This document shows positions 2,735-19,956 of a DNA stretch of 19,956 nucleotides, one piece after another. The number at the start of each line of letters is the position of its first letter. The first letter of the stretch is position 1. The position numbers and the translations under genes are program-made. Source of the stretch: a virus. Under the pieces are notes generated by a model. The model was not told the DNA's origin. It was given only the letters and a program-made list of their open reading frames with translations, and did no database searches. The DNA lies in the IMG/VR virus record IMGVR_UViG_3300045988_162015. One strand, 5' to 3'.

Positions 2735-2766
2735 ATATTATATCTCCTTTTTCACATAATAAAAAA

Positions 2767-2798
2767 AAGGAGAGGGATTAACCCTCTCCTTTAATAAT
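2767..2798 (-). terminator. Hairpin terminator (GGAGAGGG-ATTAA-CCCTCTCC) followed on the minus strand by T8.
   Basis: Minus-strand reading: aaaggagagggttaatccctctccttttttttatt. Confidence 0.55.
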
Positions 2799-2942: not shown

Positions 2943-2944
2943 AA

Positions 2945-4036: not shown

Positions 4037-4115
4037 AGGTTATTTCCTCCTTAATAAAATTTAAATTTTATTTATATAACTCGCTACAAAAATTAGTAAA
4101 GCGATTTATACAAAA

Positions 4116-4850
4116 TTAATGAATGTTTTTCATCCAATTGTCAGGTTTTTTATCTGACTTGGCTCCTGCTAATCTACTCTTTACATCAATATCCCAATTA
4201 GTATAAAGAGAAAATCTTTCTATTAAATCGTATAACTAATACAATGTTAAATTCATACAATCTTCTAATGACATTGAATCTAATCCAATAGTCAATGTAG
4301 AAACGTATTGGCTCAAAATGCTTGAATCGGTAACCCCTTTAAGTTCAGCGACCCTTTGACGCCCTTTCATTAATTTATTAGCTATTTCTTGAGCTTTTTT
4401 ATTAGCAGGATTATAATTATCTTGCCCATTTTTATTAGTATCAAAACAAAAAATTTGTCTTGCTACCTACTAAAATAATTCAAAGTTATCATTATCAATA
4501 TTAATCTAAATATCACTTTCATTATACTGAATAACAATAGACCTGGGAGTAAATGTAGACTTTGAATTTGGGAATAGTAATGATAGAACCTATTGCGCAG
4601 CTTTACGCCGTTCATTATTATCTTTCTATAGCATTACCATCATAAATATCTAAAAATTGGTAGTAGTATCCAAATCATTCTTGTCCTGATTTGTTATACT
4701 ATTTTTATTAATACAAAGACACTAAGCACCAGTAAAAAATTCTTTTTCGCCAATTAATGCTATTTCCTTTATCTTAGGCTAATGGAGAGTTAATGGAATT
4801 TCTGGAACAGGTAAATCTGTCCCGCACATTAAACTAAGTTTATAATCCAT
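4116..4850 (-). CDS. Hypothetical virion/neck protein of 244 aa with 9 in-frame TAGs.
   Basis: The frame was rebuilt from reverse-complement strings: MDYKLSLMCGTDLPVPEIPLTLH(Q)PKIKEIALIGEKEFF... ends at TAA 4116-4118. Its start overlaps the upstream stop (TAATG). Confidence 0.55.
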
Positions 4851-5440
4851 TAATTCATTTTAGGCATTTTAAAATAATCCTCGATAAACATTTGTTCATC
4901 AGCAGGATTTGGCATATATTTTTTATCTTCTCCTCCGTGTATTGTATCATATAATAAACAAAGTCCAGCAAATTCATCAGTTAATATAATTTGCTATGCT
5001 CCGACGAAATTAAGTTGCCCAATTCCAGTTAAATGTTTTTTATCTAACATACTATCAAGTTCGGCAGCGATTCTATAAGGTCTTAACTAAAATGAATCAG
5101 CTAATTGCCACTAATCATAATGACAAACAATATCAAATTCAATAGTATTATCCCTAAATTCAGGATTGTCTCCATTAGGAGCAAAGTTATCAAAACTAAT
5201 AACAATATAATTTAAAACATCTTTATCTATATATAATTTTGGTAAATTCCTTATATTTTTACCGAACATTTTTACGAAATTCTAATCACTTACTTCTGGC
5301 AGTCTTAATGCATCAGGAGTAGTATAATAAAGTAATTTACGTAAACGTTGATTCGCGGCCATACGATCAACTATAATTTTCATATCTTTTTCTTGGGCTA
5401 AAAATGCTGACTCTGGATTTTTTACATTATCAATTTTCAT
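4850..5440 (-). CDS. Hypothetical protein of 196 aa with 4 in-frame TAGs.
   Basis: ATG at 5438-5440 follows GAAGGAGAAAACGGAGA. Translation MKIDNVKNPESAFLAQEKDMKIIVDRMAANQRLRK... ends at TAA 4850-4852. Confidence 0.55.
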
Positions 5441-5461
5441 TCTCCGTTTTCTCCTTCATCT

Positions 5462-6457
5462 TTAAAATAAAGATTCAACTACAATGGTTTTACATTCTGG
5501 CCCATAGAATAAATCAAACTACCCACAGTAGGTAGTTTCCCATCGTAATTTTAAAGTATTTGTTTCTTCATTTACTTTAACTGTTAATGGTAATTTTTTA
5601 TCCCAAGTCCATTTACCAGAGTTAATTCCATCATATTTATATTCATATACTACTTTAGGTTTAATAAAAGTATCACCTATAATACCATTTTCTTTACCCT
5701 AATTAGGATCTTGAACCGGCTATATTAAACCGTTAACAATGCCATTATCAATATCATCAGCAGTTTCATTAGAATAATACTCGACAGCATTAATTTCAAT
5801 TATTCCAGGAGTAGAATACAAATCAGTAGCTTCAATACGCCAACATGTTTTATTAGGGTCATTCTATAAATAAAATTTATTATAACGCTAACATAATTTT
5901 ACATTATCATCATTATAAGGTAATAATATATTTAAAGAATGATTAGGTGTATCTATACTAATTTCATGCTTTTGGATGTAATTAATTTTAGTTTCAACAG
6001 GACCGCGCAAAGCTACATAAGTTTTATGATAATTTTTATTTTCATCTTCCCAAGCAATTTCATAAGAACAACGTCTTATATTGCCACGAAAATAAGCTAA
6101 TTCAGTTAAATCCTGTAAATAAATTAACCAATAAGTATTCGTACCTAACCACTAAAAAATATCCCCAGTTTTAAAATTACTTTCAAAACCAATTGAAATA
6201 ATTTTTTCATCATAATCCTATTTTGTTTTATCAGGGTTAATTAATGCACGACGTTCAATAGTATCTTTATCATCATATAATTTTTTTACCAAGGCAGCTT
6301 GATAAGAATAAAGTAAAGCTCTACTTAATGTTTTACGTTTATCTCTTATCATTCGTTCTTGCTGTCCTGTTACTCCATCACCATATAAATATCTTGTAAG
6401 CATATTGGCTTTTGGAATACGATTATACATTGCATCTAAATATTCATTTTTACTCAA
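5462..6457 (-). CDS. Hypothetical structural protein of 331 aa. TTG start and 7 in-frame TAGs.
   Basis: TTG at 6455-6457 follows AAGGGGG. The frame continues from track ORF 6218..6457 through TAG 6218, 6152, 5888, 5864, 5720, 5699 and 5519 to TAA 5462-5464, which sits directly before the next gene's SD. Confidence 0.5.
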
Positions 6458-6743
6458 TGTGAAGCCCCCTTAATAAAGTAATAGCTTCAAACACTGTTTT
6501 TCTATAAATAGGAAATTCAATTTCGATATTTTTTAATCCCTCTAATTTGCTTAAAAGAATTAAATACTAACTATCATTAAAAATTTCTCCAAGACCGGTT
6601 AATTCAATAATTACAGTATTTAACTAAGATATCCAATCTTCTTCATTTTCTCTCATAGGAATTAATTTCCATATCTAATTAGTGAGTCTATTAATATTAG
6701 TATTAATTAAATTATTGTCTATATCAAAATTATATTTAGTCAT
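6450..6743 (-). CDS. Hypothetical head-tail joining-type small protein of 97 aa with 3 in-frame TAGs.
   Basis: ATG at 6741-6743 overlaps the upstream stop (GATGACTAA). AGGGAGG lies 8 nt upstream. Stop TAA at 6450-6452 overlaps the TTG start of the next gene. Confidence 0.5.
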
Positions 6744-7347
6744 CAAGGGCGCTTACCTCCCTTAGAACAGACCAATTGGATTTAATATATCCATCATCAT
6801 CAGTTTTACGACGTTTATATAATCTCTACATATGAAATGCCTGACGTCTTACTTCTGTTCTCAATGATAACAATTTCTACATATGATTAGCCTATGAAGT
6901 AAATTTAAAATCTGTTCCAGAATATTTCATTCTTGTTACTTCGATAGATGCCAATTGACGTTCCACCCAAGCTTCAACCATGATTAAAGCTAAGATATTA
7001 ATTTCTTCATCATCTAAATCGGCATTAAAATAGGAGGTATTTTCCTCAGAAAATATCTCCTAAAAAGCATTATCTATATCAATATTACTACCAGCTACTT
7101 CTTCAGACAAATCTCCACCTAATGGTATATCAATATCTCCGCCATCAATCTCTCCTTTTATAAAATCAGGAGCATCTTCATCTATTAAAACGTAATCTAA
7201 TCGTTTACGCGGAAATTCAAATCCAGGAATACTATCAACAAGTAATTGGCGTAAATCTAAAAATGTATCACGAGGAGTAAGTTCTAAATACATATCATCT
7301 GTTACTTTGCCTAAAAAACGTTCATAAACTTTATAAAAATATGTCAT
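6736..7347 (-). CDS. Hypothetical protein of 203 aa, head-tail connector/adaptor candidate, with 4 in-frame TAGs.
   Basis: ATG at 7345-7347 follows AAGGAGGG. Track ORF 7060..7347 continues through TAG 7060, 6892, 6877 and 6826 to TAA 6736-6738. Confidence 0.55.
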
Positions 7348-7369
7348 ATAAAACCCTCCTTATTTATAA

Positions 7370-7936
7370 TTAACCTTCTTTTACAACATTATAACGAGGA
7401 GCAGTTCTACGACCAGGAGGCGTTGTGGGCTTAGTTTCAGTCTTCACTCTACGTTCAGGAGCTTTTGGAGTAATCTGTTCATCCTCCGCAGCTTCAGCTT
7501 CCTTATTAGCTAATGCTCTATCAAGGTCAAATCCAGTTTTATCTTTAAGAGCTTTACGCTTATTGTAATCACTCATAGGAAGAGATACAGCATAACTCTT
7601 AATCATATCAATAACTCCAATAGGAGCAAAATCAAGGCAGTCAAGGAATTCATCAAGAGTTCCTTCAGTAAGAAGCTTAATAACTCCAGCATCATCTAAA
7701 TAATATTCAGGTTCTGTATGAATACCTAATTCTTCTGTAGTTTCAGTATCCACAATCTTTAAGAAATTTTCCATTAAAGTGCGGCCTCCGCTAAGATAGG
7801 CAAGTTTCTCTAATTCCTCAAAAGGAATTTTCTTAGTTTCTCCAGGTGTAAATTCTCTGCGGATACCTTCTTCAGGAATAGTATAAACAACCATTCCAGC
7901 ACTTCTATTAGTAACTAATAAAATTTTTTTAACCAT
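7370..7936 (-). CDS. Hypothetical head-associated protein of 188 aa with no in-frame TAG.
   Basis: The likely true start is the ATG at 7934-7936 (MVKKILLVTNRSAG...), with AAAGGAGAAT upstream, rather than the track's 7993. Stop is TAA at 7370. A hairpin terminator lies upstream. Confidence 0.6.
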   Translation of the reverse strand: MVKKILLVTNRSAGMVVYTIPEEGIRREFTPGETKKIPFEELEKLAYLSGGRTLMENFLKIVDTETTEELGIHTEPEYYLDDAGVIKLLTEGTLDEFLDCLDFAPIGVIDMIKSYAVSLPMSDYNKRKALKDKTGFDLDRALANKEAEAAEDEQITPKAPERRVKTETKPTTPPGRRTAPRYNVVKEG

Positions 7937-7967
7937 TTTTTTTATTCTCCTTTTACTCATAAAACAA

Positions 7968-8003
7968 AATAGGGGAGAAGGGGATTTCCCCATTCTCCCC
8001 TAA
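7968..8003 (-). terminator. Hairpin terminator after the capsid gene (GGGGAGAA...TTCTCCCC with inner GGGGA/TCCCC) plus a U-rich tail.
   Basis: aggggagaaggggatttccccattctcccc. Confidence 0.55.
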
Positions 8004-8036
8004 AAATATTATATATTAATTTTTAGTTAATATCAA

Positions 8037-9173
8037 TTACGGCTTATCTTCATTACCGCCATCAATAGTATCATGAGAACCAGTAATCTGACCAGCATAG
8101 TCACGGACCTTACCAGTTACGCCATCAAGATGCCATGTCTTCATATCACCAAGAAGTTCAGTATCACAATAGCAGCAGATGTTATTAGCTAACATAGCAA
8201 TAACGCCAACTTTCTTATAAACCTGAATTTCACGACTACGATCATAATTGGTATATTCATCAACAATGGTATTGCCTTCCATAGCAACCTTTACAGGCTT
8301 ACTATCAGCACCAGTAGGAATAATCCAAGCATAACCTGGGTCAATGACTTTCTTTTCATTAGTAGCATCTTCAAAGCCCTGCTCAAGAATAACAACTTTA
8401 TAGCCCTTATAGGAAGCAAGACGGCCAGTATTCCAAAGCTCATTTTTCATAGCTTCAGTATAACGCCAAGCATCCTTCGGAATCATACGAACAGCAAATT
8501 CATAAGTGCAATAAATAGTAGGAGTACCATAAGCAGAAGCAATCATAAGTAACTTATCAAAACCGGGTTCATCAAAACCATTAGCAACTAAACGGTTAGC
8601 AGGAGGTAACTGGTTAACAGAAGCCTTTAAAGCACCGGCAATTTCTTTATAGATAAGTTCATCCATACCTTCCATGACGATCTGGGTAACAACACCAAAA
8701 TCGACACGGCCATCAAGGAATTCCTCAAAGCCAATTTGAGCAGCTCCGCCGATAGCGCTTGTGCGGACTTCAAAGCTTTCTTCAGTCTTACCAAGCTTGA
8801 ATACTTCATAGATACCAGCTAGGCCGACACGAGTGATGAATTGCTTTGCGCGAGTATTGTTGCTGAACTTTCTACGGAAAATAGGCTTGTCACCCTGTTT
8901 AAACGTCTTAACTTCAGCAAACTGATTATATTGCTCTTCAACTTTCTTAGGAAGAACTTCATCAATAGTTTCCTCAATCATCGAGAAAATAAGGTTCTTA
9001 TTATCACGATATAAAGAATAAGTTCCAGCAAGTTCATTTAATTCTCTGCGGAGAGTTTCATTAAGAGCATCATAAGAAAGGCTTTCGCCATTAAAGCTGT
9101 AAGCAGTAGGAGTAGAAGGATCAGCCTTAGCGACAGTCTTCATTAATTGAACAAGATTTTTTCTATCTAACAT
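8037..9173 (-). CDS. Major capsid protein candidate of 378 aa, free of TAG codons.
   Basis: An intact track ORF with an AAAGGAGAGAAG SD. It lies between the scaffold-like gene and a strong terminator. Size and sequence style resemble HK97/T7-fold coat proteins. Confidence 0.6.
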   Translation of the reverse strand: MLDRKNLVQLMKTVAKADPSTPTAYSFNGESLSYDALNETLRRELNELAGTYSLYRDNKNLIFSMIEETIDEVLPKKVEEQYNQFAEVKTFKQGDKPIFRRKFSNNTRAKQFITRVGLAGIYEVFKLGKTEESFEVRTSAIGGAAQIGFEEFLDGRVDFGVVTQIVMEGMDELIYKEIAGALKASVNQLPPANRLVANGFDEPGFDKLLMIASAYGTPTIYCTYEFAVRMIPKDAWRYTEAMKNELWNTGRLASYKGYKVVILEQGFEDATNEKKVIDPGYAWIIPTGADSKPVKVAMEGNTIVDEYTNYDRSREIQVYKKVGVIAMLANNICCYCDTELLGDMKTWHLDGVTGKVRDYAGQITGSHDTIDGGNEDKP

Positions 9174-9190
9174 TTTTCTTCTCTCCTTTC

Positions 9191-9967
9191 TTACGCGATT
9201 CGCATAATCTTAACGCCCTTCTGATGATCAGGCATTTCATAAACCTTGACAACCTACCATTGGATAGAGCCATCACCAGATTTAGAAAGCATACCATCAG
9301 CAGCACGAGGACTTAAAACATCGCCAACTACAAGAGTAGCTTCGGCAATAGTATTAGTCGTAAAAATATCACCAACGTTGGTCTTGAAAACACGAGGAAC
9401 CATATTAGTGCCAGCAGGCATTCTACGGGCCTCATAAGGACCATCAAAATGTAAAGGATCTTCTTCATAGAAGAGTTCACGAATATCAGGACCAGCAGTG
9501 ACATCATCATACTCATAAGTATGTTGTACACCCTGACTATCTGTAATAGTCATAGAAGTATTACCTTCGGCATCCTTGCCGTTTAAATAGCGAGCCTGAC
9601 GTGTACCAATTTCCTGCTTGCCATCATAGGGGCTGTAATAACGAGCCTGATAATCATCTTTGCGCATAGCAAATTCGCAATCAGCTTGTTCCTCACGATA
9701 AAGTTTAATTTCATTATAAACTAACATCCATTCGCCCTTGCCAGTGAAATCAACTTCACCAAGCTCACCAGCAGCATAGTCATACTTAACAAACTGGCCA
9801 TTTTCAAGAAGCTGGATATTTCTGTTAGCAGGTAATTGAGCATAAATCTGACCAGTGCGTTGAGCACTTAAATGATTAGGCTCAACCTGACCATAGCCAT
9901 ATTCAACGTAGCCGCCCTTAACAGCAGATACGCCGCTTAGGTCTTTAAGCATATCTTTTAAAAGCAT
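9191..9967 (-). CDS. Hypothetical head protein. Track ORF 9254..9967 (237 aa) would gain a 20-aa extension if TAG 9254-9256 is read through, ending at TAA 9191-9193.
   Basis: ATG at 9967 follows AAGGAGG. After TAG the same frame reads QVVKVYEMPDHQKGVKIMRIA, then TAA. Confidence 0.5.
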
Positions 9968-9991
9968 TAGGTTTTCCTCCTTAAAAATTTA

Positions 9992-11557
9992 TTATTCCAT
10001 AGTTTTCGCAACATCCTATACTGCCTTAATCCAAGCAGGAATGCTATCGTCATTTACATCATTATTAATATTATATGTAAGTGGGTCATTTTCTTTCTTT
10101 TCATTAGTATCGAAATTGACCTTATTGCGAACACAGATAATAGAAAGCTTTGCTTCAATATCATCTAATGAATAAGTATCAATATTAGCAACAACATCTT
10201 TCTTATCATCATCAGATAACATATAGAAACTATTAATCATTTCTTGTTTCTTTTCTCTTTCAGCCTCAGTCTTAAACTGAGTTAAAGAAGCAAGTTCTTG
10301 TTCGAGTTGTGTTTGCTTTTCAACTAATTCATTATATTTAGTTTCAAGCGCGGCGTACTCGTCTTTTAATAAACCATATTCAACTATATCTTCCAAAGAG
10401 TACTTAGCTTTCTTTTTCTTTTTTTTCTCTTCGTCATCCTCAGTTGGTTCTTCTTCTTCATCAGAAGTATCAGTTGGTTTATTTTCGGGAGTGTCCTTCT
10501 TTTCATCATCTTTTGGCTGATCTTTAGAAGGATCTTCCTTATTATTATCATTATTCTCTTTATTGTCTTTATCTTTTTCGTCCTTTTTTTTCTTCGCAAA
10601 TTCTGCGACTTTTTCAGGATCGAATTGAGGATTATCAGAAACAGAATAATCAGTTAATTCAGAAACTTCACCAGGAGTGAAAGTATCATTCTCCATAGAA
10701 AAATCTAAACGAACGAACTTATCATCTTCCTTGACAATAGCAAATAAATTACCATTGTCTTCGCAAACTTCTTCAATCATTGCATTACCTGCTCCGAAGC
10801 CCTTAATGTAAGAATAAAGAGAAGTCCAAATGGAATCACCAATCTCCACACTATATCTTGTGAACACTTTTGTTCCTCCTTTACCTTCTAATAATTCTTT
10901 TAAATCTTTCATCATAGAGAATAATTGCTCATTAAATTTATCACTAAATGAGAAATGCATCGTAGGAGCAGTAATATTAGCTCCTTCAAAACAAGGTTCA
11001 CAATCTTCTCCAAGAATACAAAGTTTCTTAATTATTGCTTCATTTATAATAAAAAATTCGGGCATTCCATTCTTATCTTTCGACCAATACGCATTAATTT
11101 TTTCATCATCTAATTCCATAGATTGATTATTACCTTTTTCAATAATACGTTTACTTTCTGGATAGATATCTGTCCAGATATAGCCTTCAGTCATTAAATA
11201 TTCATGCTCGTTTTTTCCATCATCTAAAAATTTCTAAAACCATACTTTGGCTCCCAAGTCTACAAAACCATAAGGAACAGTAGTATCTTTAATATCAAAT
11301 TTACCATTAGAAATATCAATAATACGATTATGTTCTTCATAATCCCCATTGACTTCATTAAAATAACCAACGATAGGACTACCTGGTAAACTTTGCGCTA
11401 AATCTTTAGCAACTTCTTTTGTTATAACACTTCTATTGCGATTTGGTTTATCACCAACATAACAAACTTTAATCTAACATTTAGAAATTAAAGGATTGAT
11501 TTTAGTGATATTAATAAACTCAACAGGAGTATCTAACTTAACACTTGTATGTCTCAC
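9992..11557 (-). CDS. Prohead protease/scaffolding-like protein of 521 aa. It has a GTG start, a long D/E/K low-complexity coiled-coil C-terminal half, and 3 in-frame TAGs.
   Basis: GTG at 11555-11557 sits 7 nt after AAGGAGG. The frame is continuous into track ORF 10016..11194 through TAG 11474 and 11234, then through TAG 10016 to a TAA TAA double stop at 9992. The N-terminal region is globular. The C-terminal part is KKKKDEKDKDNKENNDNNKEDPSKDQPKDDEKKDTPENKPTDTSDEEEEPTEDDEEKKKKKK plus coiled coil. Confidence 0.5.
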
Positions 11558-11569
11558 TATAAATCCTCC

Positions 11570-13258
11570 TTATTTACCAGCCGCTTGACGATTAGCGATT
11601 GTTTTTTCACTCTTTTCATCATTAGCTTTTTCTGGCCGACCGCTTTCTTTAGTTTCTGTTTTTACAGTAGTGGCATTTCCACTTGTTTTATTTTGAGAAG
11701 TGTTAGAACTATTCTAATCTTTTTTACCCAAAATATCTTCACCATTTAATGTAGAACTCATAAGAGGCGGTATCATAACTTCACTTAAATGTAGAACTTC
11801 ATTTTCAAAATGAGCTGTATTAAGAATAAAACTCTATGACTATCCAAGAGCAATCTAAGGTAACATTTTAGAGAAACCAATCTAAGTTTGCTCTTTATAC
11901 ATCTTAGATAAATCTTTATAATTATACTATGTAGTTTCTAACATATAGAATTTATAATTATATTTTTTCTAAACATTCAGGACTGATAATATTCTATCAA
12001 AAAATATGTTGAATTGCAAAATTAAATTACGCATGGTAGATTCATCATCTAAGATAGACTTTTCCAACGCAATATTGCCATCTGTATTAAATAAATTGCG
12101 CGAAACGCCAAATGCATTATATACGGTTCGTTCAACACGCTCTAATTCATCTGTGGTAGCAGAAGTATTTTTATCAGAAGTATCAATAGCATCTACATCT
12201 GCAAAAGTAGTTAATACATCAACACCTACAGCTCTACGCAACATTTCAACAGCATTATTATGAATATCACGAGCTTCATCAATATCAAAAATCAAATCAC
12301 CATTTTTATCAAGTGGTAATTTCTAAACTAAAATCTTTAATAATTTTTGCATCTACTTGCGGCGGTCTAAATCTTGTGCAGCATCTAAATCCAAAATTGC
12401 TGGAATAGCATTTACAAATAATGGAATATCATTAGTACCATTTAAAGCAAACTTAATAGTGCTTTGTGGATCTAATAAATACCAACTACCAGTATTATCA
12501 CCAGCTACATCAGGTAAAAGTTTACCAGCCTTATAGAGACGATAACCTATTGTAAATTCATCAGGAAATAATTTTAATACTCTATTACGGTAATTAGTAT
12601 CCACAAAAGTATCAAAGTATCTCATATCAAATTCAATAGCAGGTAAATTACCTACTGAATATCTTGAACGACAATACTCAATAGGAAGTTGCTATAAAAT
12701 TAAACCAGTACTTGAGGGAACAATATAGGCATAATAAGCTCCACATTTGATAACTTCAAGAGCCATATCGCCACAAATTTTCTTAATATAAGAATTATCT
12801 AAATAATTTAAAATTCGCCAGAAATCTTTTACTGCTTTTGTTTCATTAATATCTTTAACAGCAGAACCGTCAGTATTATTAGACTAAATAGCAATAGCCC
12901 AATCATAACGATACATATTCGCAAAATAATTACATACTCTTTGATAAATACCGCTTACTCTAAAAAAGAAACGTGATATTCTTCGCAATTCTTGAATATC
13001 ATTACGAATTAAAGCATCCATAACCATGGGCTTTGTATAAATACGTTCACGGCTATACTTTTCATTGCGGCGACCGTAAGTGTCCCATCTGAAAGATCCA
13101 AGATTTAAGACAGCATCGTCTAATGTCTTAACACCAACCTTAATCTTCTTATATTCATTTGGGCCAACTGCAGAATACTCACGTACTCCTCCAGTTATGT
13201 CAAAACCTTTTTTATGTATCTATTCATTTCTGGTTAATTCTTCCTTTTCTAATTCCAT
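11570..13258 (-). CDS. Portal protein candidate of 562 aa with about 11 in-frame TAGs.
   Basis: ATG at 13256-13258 follows AAGGTG. One frame joins track ORFs 12353..12625 and 11969..12295 through TAGs at 13220, 12692, 12353, 12323, 11969, 11927, 11882, 11855, 11840, 11834 and 11714. Stop TAA at 11570-11572 directly abuts the next gene's SD. Size and its position between terminase and scaffold fit a portal. Confidence 0.6.
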
Positions 13259-13275
13259 ACTTCACCTTCTTTCAA

Positions 13276-13632
13276 TTAATATCCAGCTTTTCGCATTATA
13301 TAATCATAAGAAATTAAATTTTCTTCTGTATAAGGAATTTCTATTAAATGTAAATCATGTAAAGCACAGAATCTACGTTTTTGATTATCATTATATTGCT
13401 ATTGATATAATCCACGTTTTCCACCAAATTTATTACTGGCTTCATAATGCTATTTCCCTTGATATTCAATTAAAAAATCAATATTATTATCATCATCAAA
13501 TATAACAAAATCAAAACGTAAAGGACGACCATTATGTGTTTTTAAATCTGGAAATATATATTCCATCTTAAAATTCAGGCCGGCTTCCTCTAAGATTTCT
13601 CTAATCTTAATTTCCGCACGACTGGCATCCAT
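13276..13632 (-). CDS. Small DUF559/Vsr-like (PD-(D/E)XK-type) endonuclease-fold protein of 118 aa with 2 in-frame TAGs.
   Basis: ATG at 13632 follows AAAGGAGA. Track ORF 13450..13632 continues through TAG 13450 and 13399 to TAA 13276. The motif ...FDFVIFDDDNNIDFLIEYQGKQHYE...QKRRFCALHDLHLIEIPY resembles the iEvDGxQH ... R...L...G..vlRf signature. Confidence 0.45.
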
Positions 13633-13720
13633 ATATTAAGTCTCCTTTCTTATCTACAAATAAATTCCTCTTATTATTCTTTTAAAAATTAATTTAAAAG
13701 AATAATAAGAGTTGCCCGGC

Positions 13721-15472
13721 TTAATTCATAAACATCCAATCAGCAGCCCGGAATTTTTTCTTCTTTTTATCTTCTTCTATTTTTTTTATATAATATAATC
13801 CATACTCTAATGCAGAGAATTTATCTTTTTTAATACTTTTATTAGCTTGTTTTAAAATTATATTTAAACCTTCATTTTCTTCACGTAGATTCATAATCTC
13901 TTCGCGTAATGAAGTAGTTAAACTGAATGGTCTTAAATAATCAGATCGCGCTTCTGTGGTCATATTCTAGCCCACTTTAGTAGTTAATAATTTCTATTTA
14001 GCAGTTCGTTCATCAATTAAAAATTTAATCTTACCAGAATTTAATACTGACTAAGTAATACTATGTGCTTCAGTATTAATTGGTGCATTAGCTTTCATTA
14101 AGTATAAAACATCTAATTCTGTACTATTGGTTTTATATTTTTTATATTCTTGAACTGCATCATCCTAAGTTCCACCATAAACACCAAAATCAGGAATTAC
14201 TTCAGAAGTTTCAGGATTAATCTGTGGTTTAACCATAAAATCAACTAAACCAACACCAAGTCCATTAGCATCTATTACAATTCTACGAGCTTTATATTTA
14301 TAATATAATTTTTTAAGTTTAATAGCCTAATCTTCAAAATGGGTATCATTCATAGTATAAATATTAACTAAACTTTTAATCGGTTCACCATGCGGTTGCG
14401 GCGTTACTTTAAATACACAAACAACAGTATCGCATCCTTTACGGCCTACGTCAACACTTAATATATAATAAGATAATTTACTTGAACGACCAGAAGCTTC
14501 ATACTCAGGCTAATTCAGTATTCTATTTCTATTAAATATTTCTGCATTAAAGAAAGCGTCTTCAACTGTACCAGACCAAATTGATTCATATTCACGTTCG
14601 AAAGAAGCTTCATTATAAGTTCCTTCATTTTTTTGGTCAGTAATAAATGTTTTCTGCTGTAATCCAACAGCAACAGGAGTTCGCCAAGTTCCGCCTAATA
14701 CCATACATCTATCAGGCTATGTAATCATACGAACTAATAAACCAATTAATCTATCATAAGGATAAGTATTTTTATAGCCAGCAGTAGTAATATAAATCTA
14801 TGATTTATTTACCGCTTCTTCTTCATGAGTTGTACCATCCTTAGCTCTACGAGGAATAGCCATAACTGGTATAATGACTTCGCGCAAAATCTAATCATCA
14901 ATACCTACACATTCTTCCATTAGACCGCCATGACGACGCTGACCACGAGTACTTTCTCTCGCAGCTAAATTATCAAGGACAGAGCCATTCTTAAATACAT
15001 AACGTACTTTATCTTTACTCTCTTGGCTCTTACCTCGACCCCAATCAATTTCACGTTTAAAGCTCGGTATTAAGTCACAAATTTCATTAACTTTGTCATG
15101 TAGAATACTTGCACCTTGTTCCTTACCTCCAGAAGTAACAAATAAATGAACACCAGGATAAAGAATACATCTAACCATTAATGCCATAACTGATAAAAAT
15201 GATTTAGAATAGGCACGAGGGAAAACTGCATAAACATATTGATAGCGCATTACACATCTTAAAAAAACACGCTAATAGAAGAAAAATTTAAATTCTCCTT
15301 CTTTCTATTCTGTACGTGTTCCTCGCACTAAAAAATCAACAAATAAATCTGGATATTCGCGCCAAAAGGCAGTATATTTACGAATGACTGGCATTACGGC
15401 ATTAATACGTTCTTCAGAAAGACCTATTTTTTTTCGGCTTGTAGATAGGTCAAGTAAATCTTGTAACGCCAT
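13721..15472 (-). CDS. terL: Terminase large subunit of 583 aa with 11 in-frame TAGs.
   Basis: ATG at 15470-15472 overlaps the upstream stop (TAATG). It joins track ORFs 14891..15250, 14510..14704 and 13721..13963. A Walker-A-like AVFPRAYSKS is present, plus an RNaseH-like nuclease region (VDVGRKGCDTVVCV...ARRIVIDANGLGVGLVDF) and FEREYESIW. Stop is TAA at 13721. Confidence 0.75.
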
Positions 15473-16686
15473 TAATCTTCTCTATCAGAGAAAGCATCTA
15501 TATCTAACTCTGTCTCATTATCTAAAAATTCACTAAAGTCTTCAATATCTTTATCTTCTAAAGTTTTTTCAATGTCTTCAATAGACATATCAACATCATC
15601 AACAATTGTGTCTTCGACGTTTTCTTTAGCCTATTCATCTTCTTTAGCGTTTTGTTTTAATGCCTAATCAATCATATTGCCAAGATTAGTTTCTCGTTCA
15701 ATTAAAGTACGAGTATATTTCTACATATCTTTAATTGTAAAATCTACTTTATCATTTGGAGTATCAATATAATATCTTTCGATATAGCCTTGTTTCTCAC
15801 ACATTTCTATTAATTCACCAACAGAATCAATGAAATCGCCAGATTCTTCTTTATTCTAGGCAGCAGTAAATTTGCCCGATTTCATTAAAGAATCATACAT
15901 TTTAATCATCTTTTGGGCGCCGTCTACATCACCTATATCTAATAACTAATTAGATTTTAATGATGTCTTACAGGCAAGTTTTAATGTGTCAATATGGCCT
16001 GCAGACTAAATATCGTAAGACTGCATCATTTCATTAAATAACTGCTCTAAGCGCACCCATTCATCAGGGCTATAGCCTTTTCCCCATTTTAAATAAAGAT
16101 ATCGTTTATCTTCGTCTGTCAGCTCTGCACCTAAGTCAGGAACATCAAAATCTAATTTATCTTTAAAATAATCTTCTGCAGAATTCCCAAAATCTAGGGG
16201 AGGAGGTGCAGGAGGAGGTGGCTCTTTTAATTCTTCTGATGGCAAAGCAAATGAAGCACGTTGAATGGCTGTAGTAATATCTTGAACATCATATCCCTAT
16301 TGCTTCATTGTTTCTTCTATTTTTTTATTTTGTAAGTCTTGCAAGAATTGACTATCTTTCCATCTATAATCTTTCCATTGATTTAATTTCATTGCAGAGA
16401 GATAGCGACCTAATATTGTCATTCCAGTGACTTTCGCTCTATCCTTCGCAAATTTACCCATTAACTAATTCCACTAATCAGGAATGTAAGGAACATCACA
16501 TTCTTGCAATATCCATAGATAAGTATCCGGATTCCAATTATCTACATGCATTGTTATACATTTTTTACATTTTGGTAATTTACCATCGTTAGGATATTTA
16601 TCTAAATTATTAGATGTATAAAACTAAGTTCCATCCATAGTTTTATTACATTTTTCACAGTAATATTGTTTACCTTCGCTGGACAA
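15472..16686 (-). CDS. Zinc-ribbon DNA-binding protein of 404 aa with an acidic C-terminus; terminase small subunit candidate by position. About 10 in-frame TAGs.
   Basis: TTG at 16684-16686 sits 8 nt after AAAGGAGA, just past an in-frame TGA. The protein contains CEKCNKT...DGKLPKCKKC and track ORF 16006..16245. It ends at TAA 15472-15474, overlapping the terL ATG. Confidence 0.45.
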
Positions 16687-16704
16687 TCAATATTTCTCCT
16701 TTCT

Positions 16705-17769
16705 TTAGGATTTCATTTTTTCTTTACGAGAACTATTTCGGCATTTTTTACATATACTATAAAATCCATCTTTACTTGTTTTGTTATAGGAAAAATATTT
16801 ATTGTGAGCTAATTTAATTTGCCCACATCGACTGCATTTTTTATATTTGCCTTTTTCTTGAGTTGTATAATACCACTCTAAATATTTATCAACAGCTTTA
16901 TCGGCAATAAGTTTTGGTATTTTATTGCGGAATAAACTTGATATATATTCTAAACTGTGGGTAATATTAAATTCTTCTTGTAAAATTTTTTGAATCTCTA
17001 TATTTTGTAATCCATCAATTTTACATTCTACAATACGCATTAACATAGGATAATCAGCCAAAGCTTCATCACAAATATTTTCAAAATCATAGATAAGATA
17101 CCAAGTATCATCTTCAAAACGGTCCCAACTATCTTCTTTTAACCGAGAATAATTGCATAAGATGCAAGAGCAAATTTCAGGGTTCATCAATGAGACGCCT
17201 TCTGGAATTGGATATCCATCATCATCAAATATTTTTACATCTTCATCTAATTTAATTTTATATTTGGACCGTGTAAGCTTTACTGGTACTATTGGCTTCC
17301 GATAAGCATTTTTAATAACATATTGGTCTTTACGCATTTCTATTAATGCTTTTTTTATAGTGAAAGCATCTTTACCACTCACTACTTTCATTTTTGCTTC
17401 CCAAGTTGTAATAGCGTCTTTTAATTGTTTTAAGCTCGGAATTTCTTCTAAATCTTTTTTTGTAATTGTAACTTTTGGCTAAAATATCATATTTTTATCA
17501 CTATTAATTAAATTATATATACCATCTTCACCATTCTCTAACTGGGAAACAAGTCCTTCGAAAGAAGTTTCACGTTTATTAACTGTCATTAATCTATTAT
17601 CAGTTAATATTTTCTTTTCTTTTTTTTCTTGTTTCTCCATACATAGAATTAGATAATCTGCAAGAATTTCTAAATACTTTTCATTAGGATTTGGATTTTC
17701 TTCTAAGATTTTTTTTACTAATTCATTTCTTTCTTCAGGAGTTTCAAGAGTATAATCTAATTTTATCAA
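16705..17769 (-). CDS. Zinc-ribbon protein. Track ORFs 17479..17826 and 16705..17391 are in the same frame and separated only by TAG 17479-17481, so they are probably one ~355-aa product; two separate genes remains possible.
   Basis: Likely TTG start at 17767-17769 with GGAGG 8 nt upstream. The C-terminal motif CSRCGQIK...DGFYSICKKC is paralogous to the motif in the downstream gene. Stop is TAA at 16705. Confidence 0.45.
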
Positions 17770-17797
17770 GATTAATACCTCCAATCCTTCTAAAAAA

Positions 17798-17826
17798 ATT
17801 ATAACACAAAAAATTTGTAAAGTCAA
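17798..17826 (-). promoter_or_regulatory. Consensus promoter on the minus strand (TTGACT-17-TGnTATAAT) heading the packaging/structural gene array.
   Basis: The reverse complement reads ttgactttacaaattttttgtgttataat. Confidence 0.55.
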
Positions 17827-17880
17827 CCATGGCCAAAAATTTTTATGACATTTGGTAAAAAAATTATATAAAATGTAAAA

Positions 17881-17909
17881 TTGACAATTATAGAAAATTT
17901 TTGTATAAT
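17881..17909 (+). promoter_or_regulatory. Consensus promoter on the plus strand (TTGACA-17-TATAAT) driving the 17939 gene.
   Basis: ttgacaattatagaaaatttttgtataat. Confidence 0.6.
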
Positions 17910-17938
17910 ATTTATATAAAATTAAAGGAGATAATTTT

Positions 17939-18094
17939 ATGAGAAAACCTCGTGGTATTTTAGGTAGTATGGCTTCTAAAGCTAAACGTAGAGCAACTAA
18001 TAGTGCAACTAGAGCTGTTTATCAGCTTATGTGGGGCGAAAACCCTAAACAGCAAGGAGCCTATAATCCTACCAAAGAGCGTAAGAAAAAGTAA
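17939..18094 (+). CDS. Small basic protein of 51 aa: MRKPRGILGSMASKAKRRATNSATRAVYQLMWGENPKQQGAYNPTKERKKK.
   Basis: ATG sits 9 nt after AAAGGAGAT and a consensus promoter lies upstream. It is below the track's 60-aa cutoff. Stop is TAA. Confidence 0.5.
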   Translation: MRKPRGILGSMASKAKRRATNSATRAVYQLMWGENPKQQGAYNPTKERKKK

Positions 18095-18129
18095 ATATAT
18101 TATATTTAAAAATTGAAGGAAGTGATTTA

Positions 18130-18567
18130 ATGAAGTTTGTCCATGGGCTTCTTTTAGGTAGTGGTGCGGTACTTGGATTAGGATGTGCGGCCAGATTTAT
18201 TTATGGTAAAATTATTGAAGCAAAAATCTATAAAGATTATACTGAAGCCCTTGAAGATTTTATGAATTTTAAAAGCGATAAAAAATATATTGAATATAAT
18301 AAAGGGCTAGAAGAAAAATATATTGGGCCTGGAATAGTTCATGTCATTAAAAATAAAAAAGATTTAATGTCTATTGATGTATCTAAATATGAAGGAGAGG
18401 GTGATCCAATTGGCATTACTCTTGGTTCTAAAATTGTAGATAAAGAAGACCAATATATTATACCTGAAGTAGAAGTTTATAAATTTAAAAATGGATATAC
18501 TAATTATCGATTCCATCAAGAACGAGGAGTAATTGACCCTGATGAAGGTATTATTCCTTTTGATTAA
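18130..18567 (+). CDS. Membrane-anchored or secreted protein of 145 aa with a hydrophobic N-terminus (GLLLGSGAVLGLGCAARFIYG).
   Basis: Track ORF with a GAAGGAAG SD. Stop is TAA. Confidence 0.55.
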   Translation: MKFVHGLLLGSGAVLGLGCAARFIYGKIIEAKIYKDYTEALEDFMNFKSDKKYIEYNKGLEEKYIGPGIVHVIKNKKDLMSIDVSKYEGEGDPIGITLGSKIVDKEDQYIIPEVEVYKFKNGYTNYRFHQERGVIDPDEGIIPFD

Positions 18568-18596
18568 TTGACAAAGCACAAAAAATTTTGTAAAAT
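18568..18596 (+). promoter_or_regulatory. Promoter on the plus strand (TTGACA-17-TAAAAT) for the AbrB-like gene.
   Basis: ttgacaaagcacaaaaaattttgtaaaat. The -35 hexamer abuts the TAA of the upstream gene. Confidence 0.5.
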
Positions 18597-18657
18597 AAGT
18601 TATGAAATCTGTGGGATGGCTCGCACTCTCCCAATTAAAAAGAAAGGAGTGAGTTGA

Positions 18658-18858
18658 ATGCTGAAAACAGCTTATACAAGAAAACTCGATACAGTTGGAC
18701 GTTTAATGATTCCTTCTAAACTTCGTGAAGAATTGCATATGGTAAATGGTCATAATTATGAATTTTATATTGACGAAGTAGATGGTAAGACTTTTTTATG
18801 TATTGAATGTCCTGAAGCTAGTGATGCCGTAGCTCTTGCGAAAGAAACATTGGAATAG
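18658..18858 (+). CDS. AbrB/MazE/SpoVT-fold (swapped-hairpin) DNA-binding protein of 66 aa. The stop is TAG; read-through would add QNGYRVIKE and end at TAA 18886-18888.
   Basis: RKLDTVGRLMIPSKLREEL matches the AbrB-N/MazE signature. An AAAGGAGTGAG SD, a promoter at 18568-18596 and a terminator just downstream are present. Confidence 0.6.
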   Translation: MLKTAYTRKLDTVGRLMIPSKLREELHMVNGHNYEFYIDEVDGKTFLCIECPEASDAVALAKETLE

Positions 18859-18889
18859 AATGGATATCGAGTAATTAAGGAATAAAATT

Positions 18890-18921
18890 AAAGCGGGAAA
18901 TTATTTTCCCGCTATTTTTTT
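18890..18921 (+). terminator. Rho-independent terminator (AGCGGGAAA-ttat-TTTCCCGCT plus T9).
   Basis: aaagcgggaaattattttcccgctattttttttt. Confidence 0.65.
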
Positions 18922-18942
18922 TTATAAATTTATTCCGTATTC

Positions 18943-19008
18943 TGAAATTAAAAATGAGTTTAGAAATTATGATCGTTATTTGAAATTAAAATTGAGTTTA
19001 GAAATTAT
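18943..19008. repeat. Two 28-nt near-identical direct repeats (one mismatch) spaced 38 nt apart.
   Basis: tgaaattaaaaatgagtttagaaattat and tgaaattaaaattgagtttagaaattat. Confidence 0.7.
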
Positions 19009-19072
19009 TTTGCCAGGTAGGAAGATTTATCCATTTTTTCCATTTTTTTTACACGAAACCCTGCCCCCCCCA

Positions 19073-19124
19073 CTTCATTTGACTAAAGTGTTAAAGTCTA
19101 TTGTCTTGCTTTATTCAAATGAAG
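19073..19124. repeat. Perfect 10-bp inverted repeat (cttcatttga / tcaaatgaag) with a 32-nt spacer, sitting just past a C8 homopolymer at 19053-19063.
   Basis: Read directly from the sequence. Confidence 0.6.
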
Positions 19125-19181
19125 CAAGTTAGATACGACTAACCCCCTAAAAAAATAATTCGATTTTTTCAAAATTAGTTC

Positions 19182-19209
19182 TTGACTTTTTAGAAATAGC
19201 CGCTATAAT
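19182..19209 (+). promoter_or_regulatory. Promoter on the plus strand (TTGACT-16-TATAAT) with an upstream A-tract.
   Basis: agttcttgactttttagaaatagccgctataat. Confidence 0.5.
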
Positions 19210-19293
19210 TAGAATCAGAAAGTGACCCACGGGACAACGCAAAGCAAGCCGCAAGGCAAGCGAAAAAAAGTCAAGAAAAAATGAAAAAAGTTC

Positions 19294-19322
19294 TTGACAA
19301 ACGAAATCGCGTGTGGTACAAT
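19294..19322 (+). promoter_or_regulatory. Promoter on the plus strand (TTGACA-17-TGgTACAAT, extended -10) with an A-rich UP-like element.
   Basis: aaaaaagtcaagaaaaaatgaaaaaagttcttgacaaacgaaatcgcgtgtggtacaat. Confidence 0.55.
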
Positions 19323-19403
19323 TCAAAATGTCAAGAGGACAACGACAAAACATAGCAAGTTCTCTTGTGTGACGTAAAATGACCGGCAAACGCGGATAGC
19401 ACC

Positions 19404-19494
19404 GAACCGCCTGCACCTTGACAAGTGAATCTAAGCCGAACGCCTGCACCGTACAGCGGACGCGATGGTAGAACATAGCAAGTGCGGTGCAGGC
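19404..19494. repeat. GC-rich repeat cluster in the leader. It has gcctgcacc twice as direct copies, a 10-bp inverted repeat (gcctgcaccg / cggtgcaggc), and acatagcaagt repeated at 19351 and 19473.
   Basis: Read directly from the sequence. Confidence 0.6.
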
Positions 19495-19581
19495 AGTAGG
19501 GCAGTCCAACGCCTACGGCAGACAGCAACACGGACAGCTGACAACTAACAGTCAAATAATATGTAAAGGATTGGTAAAATC

Positions 19582-19956
19582 ATGGTATATGCAATTAAAA
19601 CAAGCGAACAGGACAAACAGAAAGCTATCAAGGCAGAGTTAGCAGAACAGGCACAAGACTTGATAGCATATGTCAAGCAATACCATATTCTAGGCAATAG
19701 CTTCGACTATGATGGTATGCTGGACAAGTATCATGAATATGCGGCGAAGAATATTCAGCAATGGGACAACCTGACATGGGCTATTCATAGTGCTGAATAT
19801 GACTTGGAGCACACGGACTATAACATGGATATGGAAACCGGCAATCCATGTGTCGCATATGAGGCCGCCTACGAGAAGCTGACAGACTTACAGGACGAGG
19901 CCGAGGAATGGGCGGATATCTTTGAACATATGCTCGAAGACTTCTTCTACAAACTG
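19582..19956 (+). CDS. Very acidic hypothetical protein, partial (125 codons, open to the window end). It has GC-richer codon usage and is an anti-restriction or DNA-mimic candidate.
   Basis: ATG at 19582 sits 11 nt after AAAGGA. There is no stop before the window end, so the track omits it. Codons such as GAC, CAG and AAG are favoured, unlike the AT-rich region. It lies downstream of tandem consensus promoters. Confidence 0.5.
   Translation, partial: MVYAIKTSEQDKQKAIKAELAEQAQDLIAYVKQYHILGNSFDYDGMLDKYHEYAAKNIQQWDNLTWAIHSAEYDLEHTDYNMDMETGNPCVAYEAAYEKLTDLQDEAEEWADIFEHMLEDFFYKL

What the first reader, a model, noticed from the sequence alone, without database searches (positions are those of the whole stretch)
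19160..19330. Two tandem near-consensus sigma70 promoters with A-tract UP elements
The first is TTGACT-16-TATAAT. The second is TTGACA-17-TGgTACAAT. Each is preceded by aaaaaagttcttgac-type A-tracts. Both fire toward the acidic ORF, about 110 nt apart. The layout resembles the strong early promoter arrays at phage genome ends, for example T7 A1-A3 upstream of an anti-restriction gene, rather than a typical intergenic region.
Basis: partly seen in the sequence, partly recalled or inferred. Interest (0 to 1): 0.6.

Follow-up and report, generated by a model that had tools for sequence, protein, structure and literature searches.

The report
Tandem phage early promoters, structured leader
Two strong, conserved host-type promoters open the early-gene region of an uncultured gut phage that reads the TAG stop codon as an amino acid; the promoters are ordinary, but the 250-base folded RNA leader they transcribe belongs to no described RNA family.

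Summary
TTGACT-16-TATAAT (19182-19209) and TTGACA-17-TGgTACAAT (19294-19322) lie 112 nt apart on the + strand, each behind an A/T tract. Matches of 11/12 or better are about 5 times more frequent in the window than in shuffles. Four cluster on the + strand within 1.6 kb (0.06 expected). In 22 distinct related metagenomic loci, P2 is present in all 22 and P1 in 20 of the 21 that reach that far upstream.

This is a host-RNA-polymerase early promoter array of a roughly 190-kb phage whose late genes use TAG as a sense codon. I found no evidence for a genome end. The acidic 134-aa protein (pI 4.2) has no sequence or fold match to Ocr, ArdA or anything else.

It is T-poor and almost constant in length. 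Several helices are supported by compensatory base changes. A conserved loop is complementary to the ribosome-binding site. The leader is more conserved than the gene it precedes and has no Rfam match. I read it as a new cis-regulatory leader RNA, most likely controlling translation or stability of the first early operon. The mechanism is inferred, not shown.

The parts
19150..19181 (+). A/T-tract (UP-like) region upstream of P1
   Evidence: Sequence. The motif ATTTTT(C/G)AAAAAAAGT..TTGAC is conserved across related loci. A function as an UP element is inferred, not tested.
19182..19209 (+). Promoter P1: TTGACT (19182-19187), 16-nt spacer, TATAAT (19204-19209). Predicted start near 19216.
   Evidence: Scores 11/12. 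The -35 TTGAC is kept in 20 of 21 loci. The -10 varies between gcTATAAT (spacer 16) and TGcTATTgT, TGgTAGAAT or TGcTACAAT (spacer 17).
19216..19293 (+). Segment present only in P1 transcripts. It holds a small GNRA-type hairpin GCC-GCAA-GGC (19248-19257) and the phased A-tracts that also form the UP-like region of P2 (19262-19293).
   Evidence: The hairpin arms flip in relatives (GGC-GAAA-GCC in L001, GGCC-GAA-GGCC in L019) but are absent in L002. No terminator lies between P1 and P2.
19294..19322 (+). Promoter P2: TTGACA (19294-19299), 17-nt spacer, extended -10 TGgTACAAT (19314-19322). Predicted start near 19329.
   Evidence: Scores 11/12 with TG. Present in 22 of 22 distinct loci, all with TTGACA. 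The -10 is TGGTACAAT in 17 of the 22. The other five read TGATACAAT, TGCTACAAT, TGCTATAAT (two loci) or, in L025, TATAAT with no TG.
19332..19367 (+). Leader hairpin H1: 9-bp stem (19332-19340 with 19359-19367) and an 18-nt A-rich loop carrying GCAAG. It begins about 3 nt after the predicted P2 start.
   Evidence: 8 of 9 pairs change on both sides. 90.8% of cells are paired, against 29-51% when the partners are slid. At least 6 different stem sequences occur.
19369..19430 (+). Rest of the leader 5' domain: conserved GUGACGUAAAAUGACCGG; hairpin H2b (19392-19395 with 19407-19410); a possible pseudoknot of CCGG (19383-19386) with the H2b loop (19402-19405); and the near-invariant CACCUUGACAAGUGAAU (19414-19430).
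   Evidence: H2b pair 76-91 reads CG:11, GC:6, UA:4. The pseudoknot is backed by one compensatory type only (CCAG/CUGG in L023 and L063). The covariance model R1 finds exactly one copy per locus.
19441..19491 (+). Leader 3' domain, type A. Helix X-Z (19441-19447 with 19456-19462) and helix Y-W (19448-19454 with 19482-19488, extendable to 19445-19491). They are either pseudoknotted or mutually exclusive. Invariant GAUGGUAGAACAU lies between them.
   Evidence: On the MAFFT alignment A3, which was not fitted to any structure: X-Z is 99.2% paired (pair 120-137 UA:10, CG:6). Y-W is 98.3% paired (131-159 CG:8, UG:6, UA:3; 128-162 GC:14, AU:2). Slid controls give 23-37%.
19493..19519 (+). Hairpin P4 (19493-19500 with 19512-19519) with loop CAGUCC (19502-19507)
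   Evidence: 93.4% paired, with 3 compensatory pairs that all come from L026. The loop is complementary both to GGAC 19532-19535 (100% paired, 2 compensatory) and to the ribosome-binding site GGAUUG 19568-19573 (100% paired in A3, 1 compensatory; one mismatch in L099).
19566..19584 (+). Ribosome-binding site AAGGAUUG and the ATG (19582-19584) of the acidic gene
   Evidence: AAAGGAUUG is conserved beyond what a ribosome-binding site needs. In type-B leaders a conserved UAAUCC pairs with it.
19582..19956 (+). Acidic orphan protein, first gene of the early operon. It is cut by the window end; homologues are 134 aa.
   Evidence: 171 metagenomic homologues, none with a Pfam domain, plus distant clusters. 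The model has four helices. No fold or sequence match was found.
18892..18913 (+). Bidirectional intrinsic terminator that closes the preceding + strand unit, making P1/P2 a separate unit
   Evidence: conserved in relatives.
17881..17909 (+). Further array member: TTGACA-17-TATAAT (12/12), in front of the 51-aa ORF
   Evidence: conserved in L001, L002 and L004.
18568..18596 (+). Further array member: TTGACA-17-TAAAAT, in front of the AbrB/MraZ-like gene

Best explanation
P1 and P2 are tandem promoters for the host's primary-sigma RNA polymerase (sigma-70/sigma-A type). Each has an UP-like A/T tract, and P2 has an extended -10. Together they start the first long operon of the early, host-takeover-like region of an uncultured phage of about 190 kb. 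This phage is related to the phAss-1/SPbeta-like group, and its late genes are TAG-recoded. No terminator separates the two promoters, so both give transcripts that run through one conserved leader of about 250 nt into four small orphan genes, the acidic 134-aa protein first.

The leader is a functional structured RNA. It has a hairpin at the 5' end (H1), a small and possibly pseudoknotted domain (H2), and a 3' domain that exists in two interchangeable versions. In both versions a conserved RUCC(G)AAC element can pair with the ribosome-binding site GGAUUG.

My reading is that H1 protects the 5' end of the mRNA and that the 3' domain gates translation initiation of the first gene. The signal that opens or closes it is unknown.

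Shown: the motifs, their excess over chance, their conservation, and the covariation. Inferred: promoter activity, early timing, mRNA stabilisation, and masking of the ribosome-binding site.
For: Promoters:
- Both score 11/12.
- Near-consensus sites are in excess: 8 against 1.5 expected in the window, and 4 against 0.06 in the local 1.6 kb.
- They are conserved in 22/22 (P2) and 20/21 (P1) loci, including phages whose acidic protein is only 30-42% identical.

Early array:
- The + strand promoters and terminators continue downstream in L001. The operon runs 6001-7956 and ends at a terminator at 7963.
- The downstream genes are small orphans.
- The late module on the opposite strand needs TAG read-through; the first + strand ORFs do not.

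Leader:
- Its length is almost constant at 238-254 nt.
- It holds no conserved ORF, and its indels are of 1-2 nt.
- H1 has 8 of 9 compensatory pairs.
- X-Z, Y-W and P4 are 93-99% paired on a sequence-only alignment, against 23-37% in slid controls.
- The type-B P3B helix has 7 of 9 compensatory pairs among 6 sequences.
- Pairing to the ribosome-binding site is predicted in both types.
- The 3' domain is 87-93% identical at the nucleotide level where the ORF is only 61-65% identical.
- Other promoters of the array sit only 58-92 nt from their start codons, so the long leader is special to this unit.

No Rfam family matches at any threshold tried.
Against: - There are no transcription data. Start sites, promoter strength and timing are all inferred.
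- The single-sequence folding energy is not exceptional (z = -0.8 for the P2 leader, -1.9 from P1).
- Much of the type-A covariation rests on one divergent sequence, L026.
- The H1/H2b counts come from a model-fitted alignment, which leans towards the model's structure.
- The P4 loop can pair equally well with an internal GGAC. In L099 its pairing with the ribosome-binding site carries a mismatch, so masking of that site is only one of two readings.
- Leader modules are exchanged by recombination. This inflates apparent conservation and makes sequences non-independent.
- The P1 -10 is variable, and L014 lacks P1.
Confidence: 0.65

Rival explanations
1. The leader is a processing and stabilising element, not a translational switch. 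As with T7, where transcripts from A1-A3 are cut by RNase III at R0.3 ahead of gene 0.3, the long helices would be cut by a double-strand-specific RNase. That would give P1 and P2 transcripts one common, hairpin-protected 5' end.
For: Two tandem promoters feed a single leader with no terminator between them. Conserved helices of 10-13 bp exist in both leader types: Y-W extended and P4B. H1 sits at the very 5' end. The T7 parallel is from my own knowledge.
Against: The helices are shorter than the roughly two helical turns typical of RNase III substrates. The conserved single-stranded motifs, the pseudoknot-like arrangement and the complementarity to the ribosome-binding site are not needed for simple processing. 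No cleavage data exist.
Confidence: 0.15
2. The leader is a riboswitch, or a binding site for a protein. The shared 5' domain (H1, H2 pseudoknot, invariant joining strands) would be the sensor. The two interchangeable 3' domains would be alternative expression platforms that expose or mask the ribosome-binding site in response to a host metabolite, a nucleotide signal or a phage/host protein.
For: The architecture is modular: one 5' domain is combined with two unrelated 3' domains. Invariant nucleotides concentrate in loops and junctions (GCAAG, GACGUAaAAUGACCGG, CACCGA, CCUUGAMAAGUGAAU). Two helices, X-Z and Y-W, overlap and are both supported by covariation. Both types carry an element complementary to the ribosome-binding site.
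Against: It resembles no known riboswitch class. The 5'-domain pattern occurs in no bacterial genome apart from one phage-like contig binned into a MAG, whereas real riboswitches are usually widespread in hosts. The 3' domains are more elaborate and more conserved than typical expression platforms. No ligand can be proposed from the orphan genes downstream.
Confidence: 0.15
3. The region is mainly a DNA element, either a replication origin or a packaging site. In this view the promoters serve transcriptional activation, and the repeats and hairpins act at the DNA level.
For: Iteron-like direct repeats of about 38 bp occur in 2-4 copies at 18921-18996. Conserved inverted repeats lie at 19073-19124. 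A/T tracts are present. Transcription direction and GC skew switch nearby.
Against: Those repeats lie upstream of P1, outside the finding. Downstream of P2 the variation is compensatory in the RNA sense, including G-U pairs that would be mismatches on the opposite strand. No initiator or terminase-recognition evidence was found. The locus is internal in long contigs.
Confidence: 0.05

Closest known systems
T7 early promoters A1, A2, A3 with the R0.3 RNase III site upstream of gene 0.3 (ocr)
   Same: Several strong host-polymerase promoters stand in tandem, with no terminator between them. They feed one structured leader and then a small, very acidic first early protein.
   Different: There are two promoters, not three. 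A position at the genome end is not shown. The protein has no fold or sequence similarity to Ocr. The leader is about 250 nt with several helices and pseudoknot-like features, not a single RNase III hairpin. The promoters have Gram-positive-style TGn extended -10 elements.
SPO1 host-takeover module (Bacillus phage SPO1 genes 37-60)
   Same: A cluster of small early genes in several short operons, with promoters and ribosome-binding sites typical of highly expressed genes and read by host sigma-A polymerase (PMC6873191). It includes acidic DNA-mimic-type products such as Gp44 (PMC8208478, from the abstract listed).
   Different: No protein homology was detected. The SPO1 module lies in the 12.4-kb terminal region, whereas no terminal position is shown here. 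To my knowledge no long conserved structured leader has been described for SPO1.
phAss-1 / proposed Phassvirus group of TAG-recoded gut siphoviruses (PMC10607447)
   Same: These are the nearest described phages (major capsid protein 49% identical). They also have TAG-recoded late genes, come from the human gut and are assigned a likely Bacillota host.
   Different: Their genomes are about 136 kb with 44% GC, against about 190-kb contigs and about 30% GC in the late region here. The acidic protein and the leader are absent from all 50,697 deposited phage records. That paper does not mention promoters.
5' leaders that mask the ribosome-binding site (translational riboswitches, RNA thermometers, ribosomal-protein leaders) and 5'-terminal stabiliser hairpins (ompA, aprE, SP82 early mRNA)
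   Same: A conserved structured 5' UTR, a hairpin at the 5' end, and an element complementary to the ribosome-binding site.
   Different: No sequence or structure match to any of the 4227 Rfam families. No effector is known. The 3' domain comes in two non-homologous versions.

Membership tests
Sigma-70/sigma-A-type promoter | -35 hexamer close to TTGACA | tested here: met
   P1 is TTGACT (5/6) and P2 is TTGACA (6/6). TTGAC is invariant in relatives.
Sigma-70/sigma-A-type promoter | -10 hexamer close to TATAAT at 16-18 nt spacing | tested here: met
   P1 is TATAAT at 16 nt and P2 is TACAAT at 17 nt. In relatives the spacing is 16-17 nt throughout.
Sigma-70/sigma-A-type promoter | Extended -10 (TGn), common in Bacillota | tested here: met
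   P2 is TGgTACAAT. TG is kept in 21 of 22 loci; L025 has GAG. P1 has TGc/TGg in 11 of the 20 loci that keep it, but not in the window, which has CGC.
Sigma-70/sigma-A-type promoter | UP element (A/T-rich, about -60 to -38) contacted by the alpha C-terminal domain | tested here: inconclusive
   Conserved A/T tracts are at the right place and resemble the consensus as I recall it. I ran no position-weight scoring of the UP element, and binding cannot be tested here.
Sigma-70/sigma-A-type promoter | A mapped transcription start about 7 nt after the -10 | not testable with these tools
   This needs 5' RACE or dRNA-seq of infected cells.
T7-type A1-A3 array before an anti-restriction gene at the genome end | Two or more tandem host promoters without an intervening terminator | tested here: met
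   P1 and P2 are 112 nt apart, and no terminator lies between 19200 and 19600.
T7-type A1-A3 array before an anti-restriction gene at the genome end | Location at the end of the genome that enters the cell first | not testable with these tools
   The locus is internal and variably placed in long contigs. Assemblies do not reveal physical ends.
T7-type A1-A3 array before an anti-restriction gene at the genome end | The first gene encodes an Ocr/ArdA-type DNA mimic | tested here: not met
   The protein is acidic (pI 4.2). It has no Pfam, PHROGs or PDB match and no Foldseek match with E below 0.001. A novel mimic is not excluded.
SPO1-type host-takeover module | A cluster of small early genes in short operons with strong promoters | tested here: met
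   promoters and terminators in L001; gene sizes of 46-185 aa.
SPO1-type host-takeover module | Homology to SPO1 gp37-gp60, or shown host shut-off | tested here: not met
   No family hits. Function is untested.
Cis-regulatory structured 5' leader | Conserved secondary structure supported by covariation | tested here: met
Cis-regulatory structured 5' leader | Lies between promoter and start codon on the sense strand, with no ORF of its own | tested here: met
   The ATG at 19379 is not conserved.
Cis-regulatory structured 5' leader | The structure overlaps or pairs with the ribosome-binding site, or forms a terminator | tested here: inconclusive
   Complementarity to the ribosome-binding site is present in both leader types. 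It competes with an internal GGAC partner and is imperfect in L099, L025 and L063. There is no terminator.
Any Rfam family | Score at or above the family's gathering threshold | tested here: not met
   No hits at gathering thresholds. Only chance-level hits elsewhere at E up to 10.

The most novel reading that the evidence does not exclude
The 250-nt leader is a new class of regulatory RNA, either a riboswitch or a protein- or ribosome-sensing switch with pseudoknotted domains. It would decide whether the very first phage operon is translated, and would let this TAG-recoded gut phage lineage sense the state of the host cell at the moment of infection. The AbrB/MraZ-like regulator encoded just upstream can be made full-length only once TAG is being read as a sense codon. 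It might then shut off P1/P2, coupling the change of genetic code to the switch from early to late expression.
Probability: 0.2. Interest if true: 0.7.

Novelty: new variant of a known kind. Interest (0 to 1): 0.4.

Why it matters
The promoters are textbook biology. Their value is practical. They mark the start of the early programme in an uncultured, TAG-recoded gut phage lineage for which no regulatory sites have been described. They also show that this phage begins infection with host RNA polymerase of the Gram-positive type, which narrows the host.

The leader is the part worth following. It is a long RNA element supported by covariation, more conserved than the protein it precedes, and absent from Rfam, from deposited phage genomes and from bacterial genomes. 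If it gates translation of the first early operon, it would be a new example of RNA-based control of phage host takeover. It is small enough (about 250 nt) to test directly with reporters and structure probing, even without the natural host.

Tried and rejected
- Conjugative leading-region single-strand promoter (Frpo-like). I considered this because of the inverted repeat 19174-19191 / 19265-19282. I rejected it because the window is a phage with structural genes, the repeat is not kept with compensation in relatives, and there are no plasmid matches.\n- A coding leader. No conserved ORF exists on either strand, with or without TAG read-through, and the indels are of 1-2 nt. The short ORF starting at ATG 19379 is lost in L015, L016 and L023.\n- A tRNA, tmRNA or known RNA family: none found.\n- A prophage/host junction or chimeric assembly as the cause of the GC jump at about 19210. 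Rejected because the same island and synteny recur in more than 20 independent assemblies.\n- Extra copies of the leader in the large downstream intergenic gaps. The covariance model finds exactly one copy per locus.\n- Pairing of the H1 loop GCAAG with the invariant CCUUG. Not supported, because L023 and L063 break it.\n- A decoy copy of CACGGGACA in the P1-specific segment. It is not conserved.\n- Covariation in the hairpins upstream of P1 (19073-19128). The result is mixed: some compensatory changes, several breaks.\n- Single-sequence thermodynamic stability as evidence for structure. It is not significant.\n- Function of the acidic protein. HMM searches, AlphaFold2 plus Foldseek (PDB, BFVD) and a PDB profile search were all negative.

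Full report
**Observation.**
- P1 is TTGACT (19182-19187), a 16-nt spacer and TATAAT (19204-19209).
- P2 is TTGACA (19294-19299), a 17-nt spacer and TACAAT (19317-19322), with TG at 19314-19315. That makes an extended -10, TGgTACAAT.
- They are 112 nt apart on the + strand, and each follows an A/T tract.
- Both score 11/12 in the consensus scan.

The loose scan (9/12 or better) is no richer than shuffled sequence (104 against 101.8), so I tested only near-consensus sites.
- The window has 8 sites of 11/12 or better, against 1.53 +/- 1.23 in 300 dinucleotide shuffles. None of the shuffles reaches 8.
- Four of the eight lie on the + strand within 17800-19400, where 0.058 are expected. None of 2000 shuffles reaches 4.

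**Context.**
- The minus strand of 1-18018 carries phage structural genes. They are fragmented under the standard code and become 16 long, near-contiguous ORFs if TAG is read through.
- There are 81 in-frame TAG codons in 5379 codons, and every one of these ORFs ends in TAA.
- The major capsid protein is 49% identical to that of phAss-1 and about 41% identical to SPbeta-like Enterococcus phages. phAss-1 is a TAG-recoded gut phage with a suspected Clostridia host (PMC10607447).
- The + strand starts at about 17881 with a 12/12 promoter. It carries a 51-aa ORF, a 145-aa ORF and an AbrB/MraZ-like gene, then a bidirectional terminator at 18892-18913.
- P1 and P2 therefore open a separate unit.
- GC content jumps from about 0.27 to 0.42-0.57 exactly at P1, and T falls to 15%.

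**Relatives.**
- The acidic ORF (ATG 19582, cut by the window end) has 171 homologues. All are metagenomic, 134 aa long and without a Pfam domain, on contigs of up to about 190 kb.
- A profile search of 1.84 billion cluster representatives adds only nine more distant clusters.
- I collected 22 distinct upstream regions. Synteny is constant: late genes, then the three + strand genes, then an intergenic region of about 720 nt, then the acidic gene, then more small genes.
- P2 is present in all 22, always with TTGACA. The -10 is TGGTACAAT in 17 of them.
- P1 is present in 20 of the 21 that reach far enough.
- All score 10-12 of 12 and are 92-113 nt apart, and the A/T tracts are kept.
- This holds in phages whose acidic protein is only 30-42% identical to the window's. 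It is a clear phylogenetic footprint.
- In L001 the + strand continues as a series of units with near-consensus promoters (8286, 9750, 10035, 10489, 10983) and terminators (7963, 9715). Promoter-like sites number 50 there against 27.4 +/- 5.3 in shuffles.
- The P1/P2 operon holds four small orphan genes.

This is the layout of a host-polymerase early array, comparable to the SPO1 host-takeover module (PMC6873191).

- P2 lies 288 nt from the ATG, leaving a leader of about 253 nt. The other promoters of the array sit 58-92 nt from their start codons.
- Leader length is nearly constant at 238-254 nt.
- The leader has no conserved ORF.
- Its 3' half is 87-93% identical to the window even where the ORF is only 61-65% identical at the nucleotide level.

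**Leader structure, 5' domain.**
- Hairpin H1 starts about 3 nt after the predicted P2 start. It occurs with at least six different stem sequences around an 18-nt loop carrying GCAAG.
- On a covariance-model alignment of 23 sequences, 8 of its 9 pairs change on both sides. 90.8% of cells pair, against 29-51% in slid controls. The covariation score is 0.445 against 0.184 in shuffles, and 0 of 500 shuffles reach it. This alignment was fitted to the model, so these counts lean towards the structure.
- H2b covaries: one pair reads CG:11, GC:6, UA:4.
- The H2b loop can pair with the upstream CCGG. Only one compensatory type supports that pseudoknot.

**Leader structure, 3' domain.**
- It comes in two unrelated versions, type A (the window) and type B, which recombine freely with the H1 variants.
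- The type-A counts below come from a plain MAFFT alignment, not fitted to any structure.
- Helices X-Z, Y-W and P4 are 99.2%, 98.3% and 93.4% paired, against 23-37% in slid controls. Ten pairs change on both sides.
- X-Z and the extended Y-W share bases, so they form either a pseudoknot or a switch.
- The P4 loop CAGUCC is complementary to an internal GGAC and to the ribosome-binding site GGAUUG. Both pairings are kept by compensatory change in L026. In L099 the pairing with the ribosome-binding site has one mismatch.
- In type B, P3B has 7 of 9 compensatory pairs among six sequences, and a conserved UAAUCC pairs with the ribosome-binding site.
- The shared motif RUCC(G)AAC suggests one common element that masks the ribosome-binding site.

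**Limits of the structural evidence.**
- Single-sequence folding energy is unremarkable (z = -0.8 and -1.9).
- Much of the type-A covariation rests on L026.

**Distribution of the leader.**
- No Rfam family matches it.
- Motif scans followed by the covariance model find it only in this phage group: seven IMG/VR contigs.
- One further hit is a 37.8-kb contig binned into an "uncultured Mollicutes" MAG. It has the same phage architecture.

**The acidic protein.**
- pI is 4.18, with 33 acidic and 11 basic residues.
- The AlphaFold2 model is confident (pLDDT 81, four helices).
- Foldseek finds nothing with E below 0.001 in the PDB or BFVD.
- Pfam, PHROGs, a PDB profile search and tblastn against 50,697 phage records are all negative.
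- The Ocr analogy therefore has no support beyond the protein's charge and its position as first gene.

**Genome end.** In long contigs the locus is internal and its position varies. Assemblies cannot show physical termini, so this part of the interpretation stays open.

**Verdict.** The promoters are an ordinary feature, here in a new phage lineage. The leader they transcribe is a candidate new cis-regulatory RNA. I commit to stabilisation by the 5' hairpin plus gating of the ribosome-binding site as the most likely mechanism. RNase processing and ligand or protein sensing are the main rivals.

Noticed in passing
window 1-18018, minus strand: The late and structural genes are readable only if TAG is a sense codon. 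That gives 16 long, near-contiguous minus-strand ORFs with 81 in-frame TAG in 5379 codons, all ending in TAA. The window contains no suppressor tRNA gene.
   Followed up: partly
window 18658-18885 (+): The AbrB/MraZ-like gene just upstream of the promoters carries a conserved in-frame TAG at 18856-18858. It would give 66 aa if TAG stops and 75 aa if TAG is read through. In the distant relative L019 the TAG lies inside the DNA-binding domain. The full-length regulator therefore depends on TAG suppression, and it could link the change of code to shut-off of P1/P2.
   Followed up: partly
window 18921-18996 (and L010, L016 with more copies): Iteron-like direct repeats of about 38 bp (…GAAATTRAAAWTGAGTTTAGAAATTAT…) occur in 2-4 copies, followed by an invariant TTTTGCCAGG. 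They could be an operator array or an origin-type element.
   Followed up: partly
window 19060-19150: A conserved block lies upstream of P1: a C-run, then ACTTCAYTTGACTAAAGTGTTAAAGTCTATTGTC, overlapping inverted repeats (19073-19088 / 19109-19124 and 19105-19115 / 19118-19128), and GTTAGATACGACTAAC. Covariation is mixed, and its role is unknown.
   Followed up: partly
window 19210-19956; L001 5600-8100: A compositional island starts exactly at P1 and covers the whole first early operon of about 2.5 kb. GC is 0.40-0.55 and T is 15-25% on the sense strand, against GC of about 0.27 in the late region. It recurs in all relatives and is unexplained.
   Followed up: partly
L001-L026, L063 (leaders): The leader is mosaic. 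At least six H1 stem variants and two unrelated 3' domains (types A and B) occur in different combinations, and independently of how similar the downstream protein is. This implies frequent recombination within the leader.
   Followed up: partly
L014 1-110: In one relative, unrelated sequence replaces P1 and everything upstream. The junction falls at the A/T tract of P2, and P2 and the leader are intact.
   Followed up: no
window 17798-17909: Back-to-back near-consensus promoters lie at the boundary between the late and early modules: minus-strand TTGACT-17-TGnTATAAT (17826-17798) and plus-strand TTGACA-17-TATAAT (17881-17909).
   Followed up: no
L099 (CAMELE010000019.1, 37.8 kb): The only match in 185,579 reference genomes is a contig binned into an uncultured Mollicutes MAG. 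It carries the same phage locus. It is probably a binned phage contig, which makes it a weak hint about the host.
   Followed up: partly
L001 8903-9460 (+): A 185-aa gene in the early region contains one in-frame stop codon under the standard code. I did not identify the codon. Recoding may therefore not be strictly limited to the minus-strand late module.
   Followed up: no
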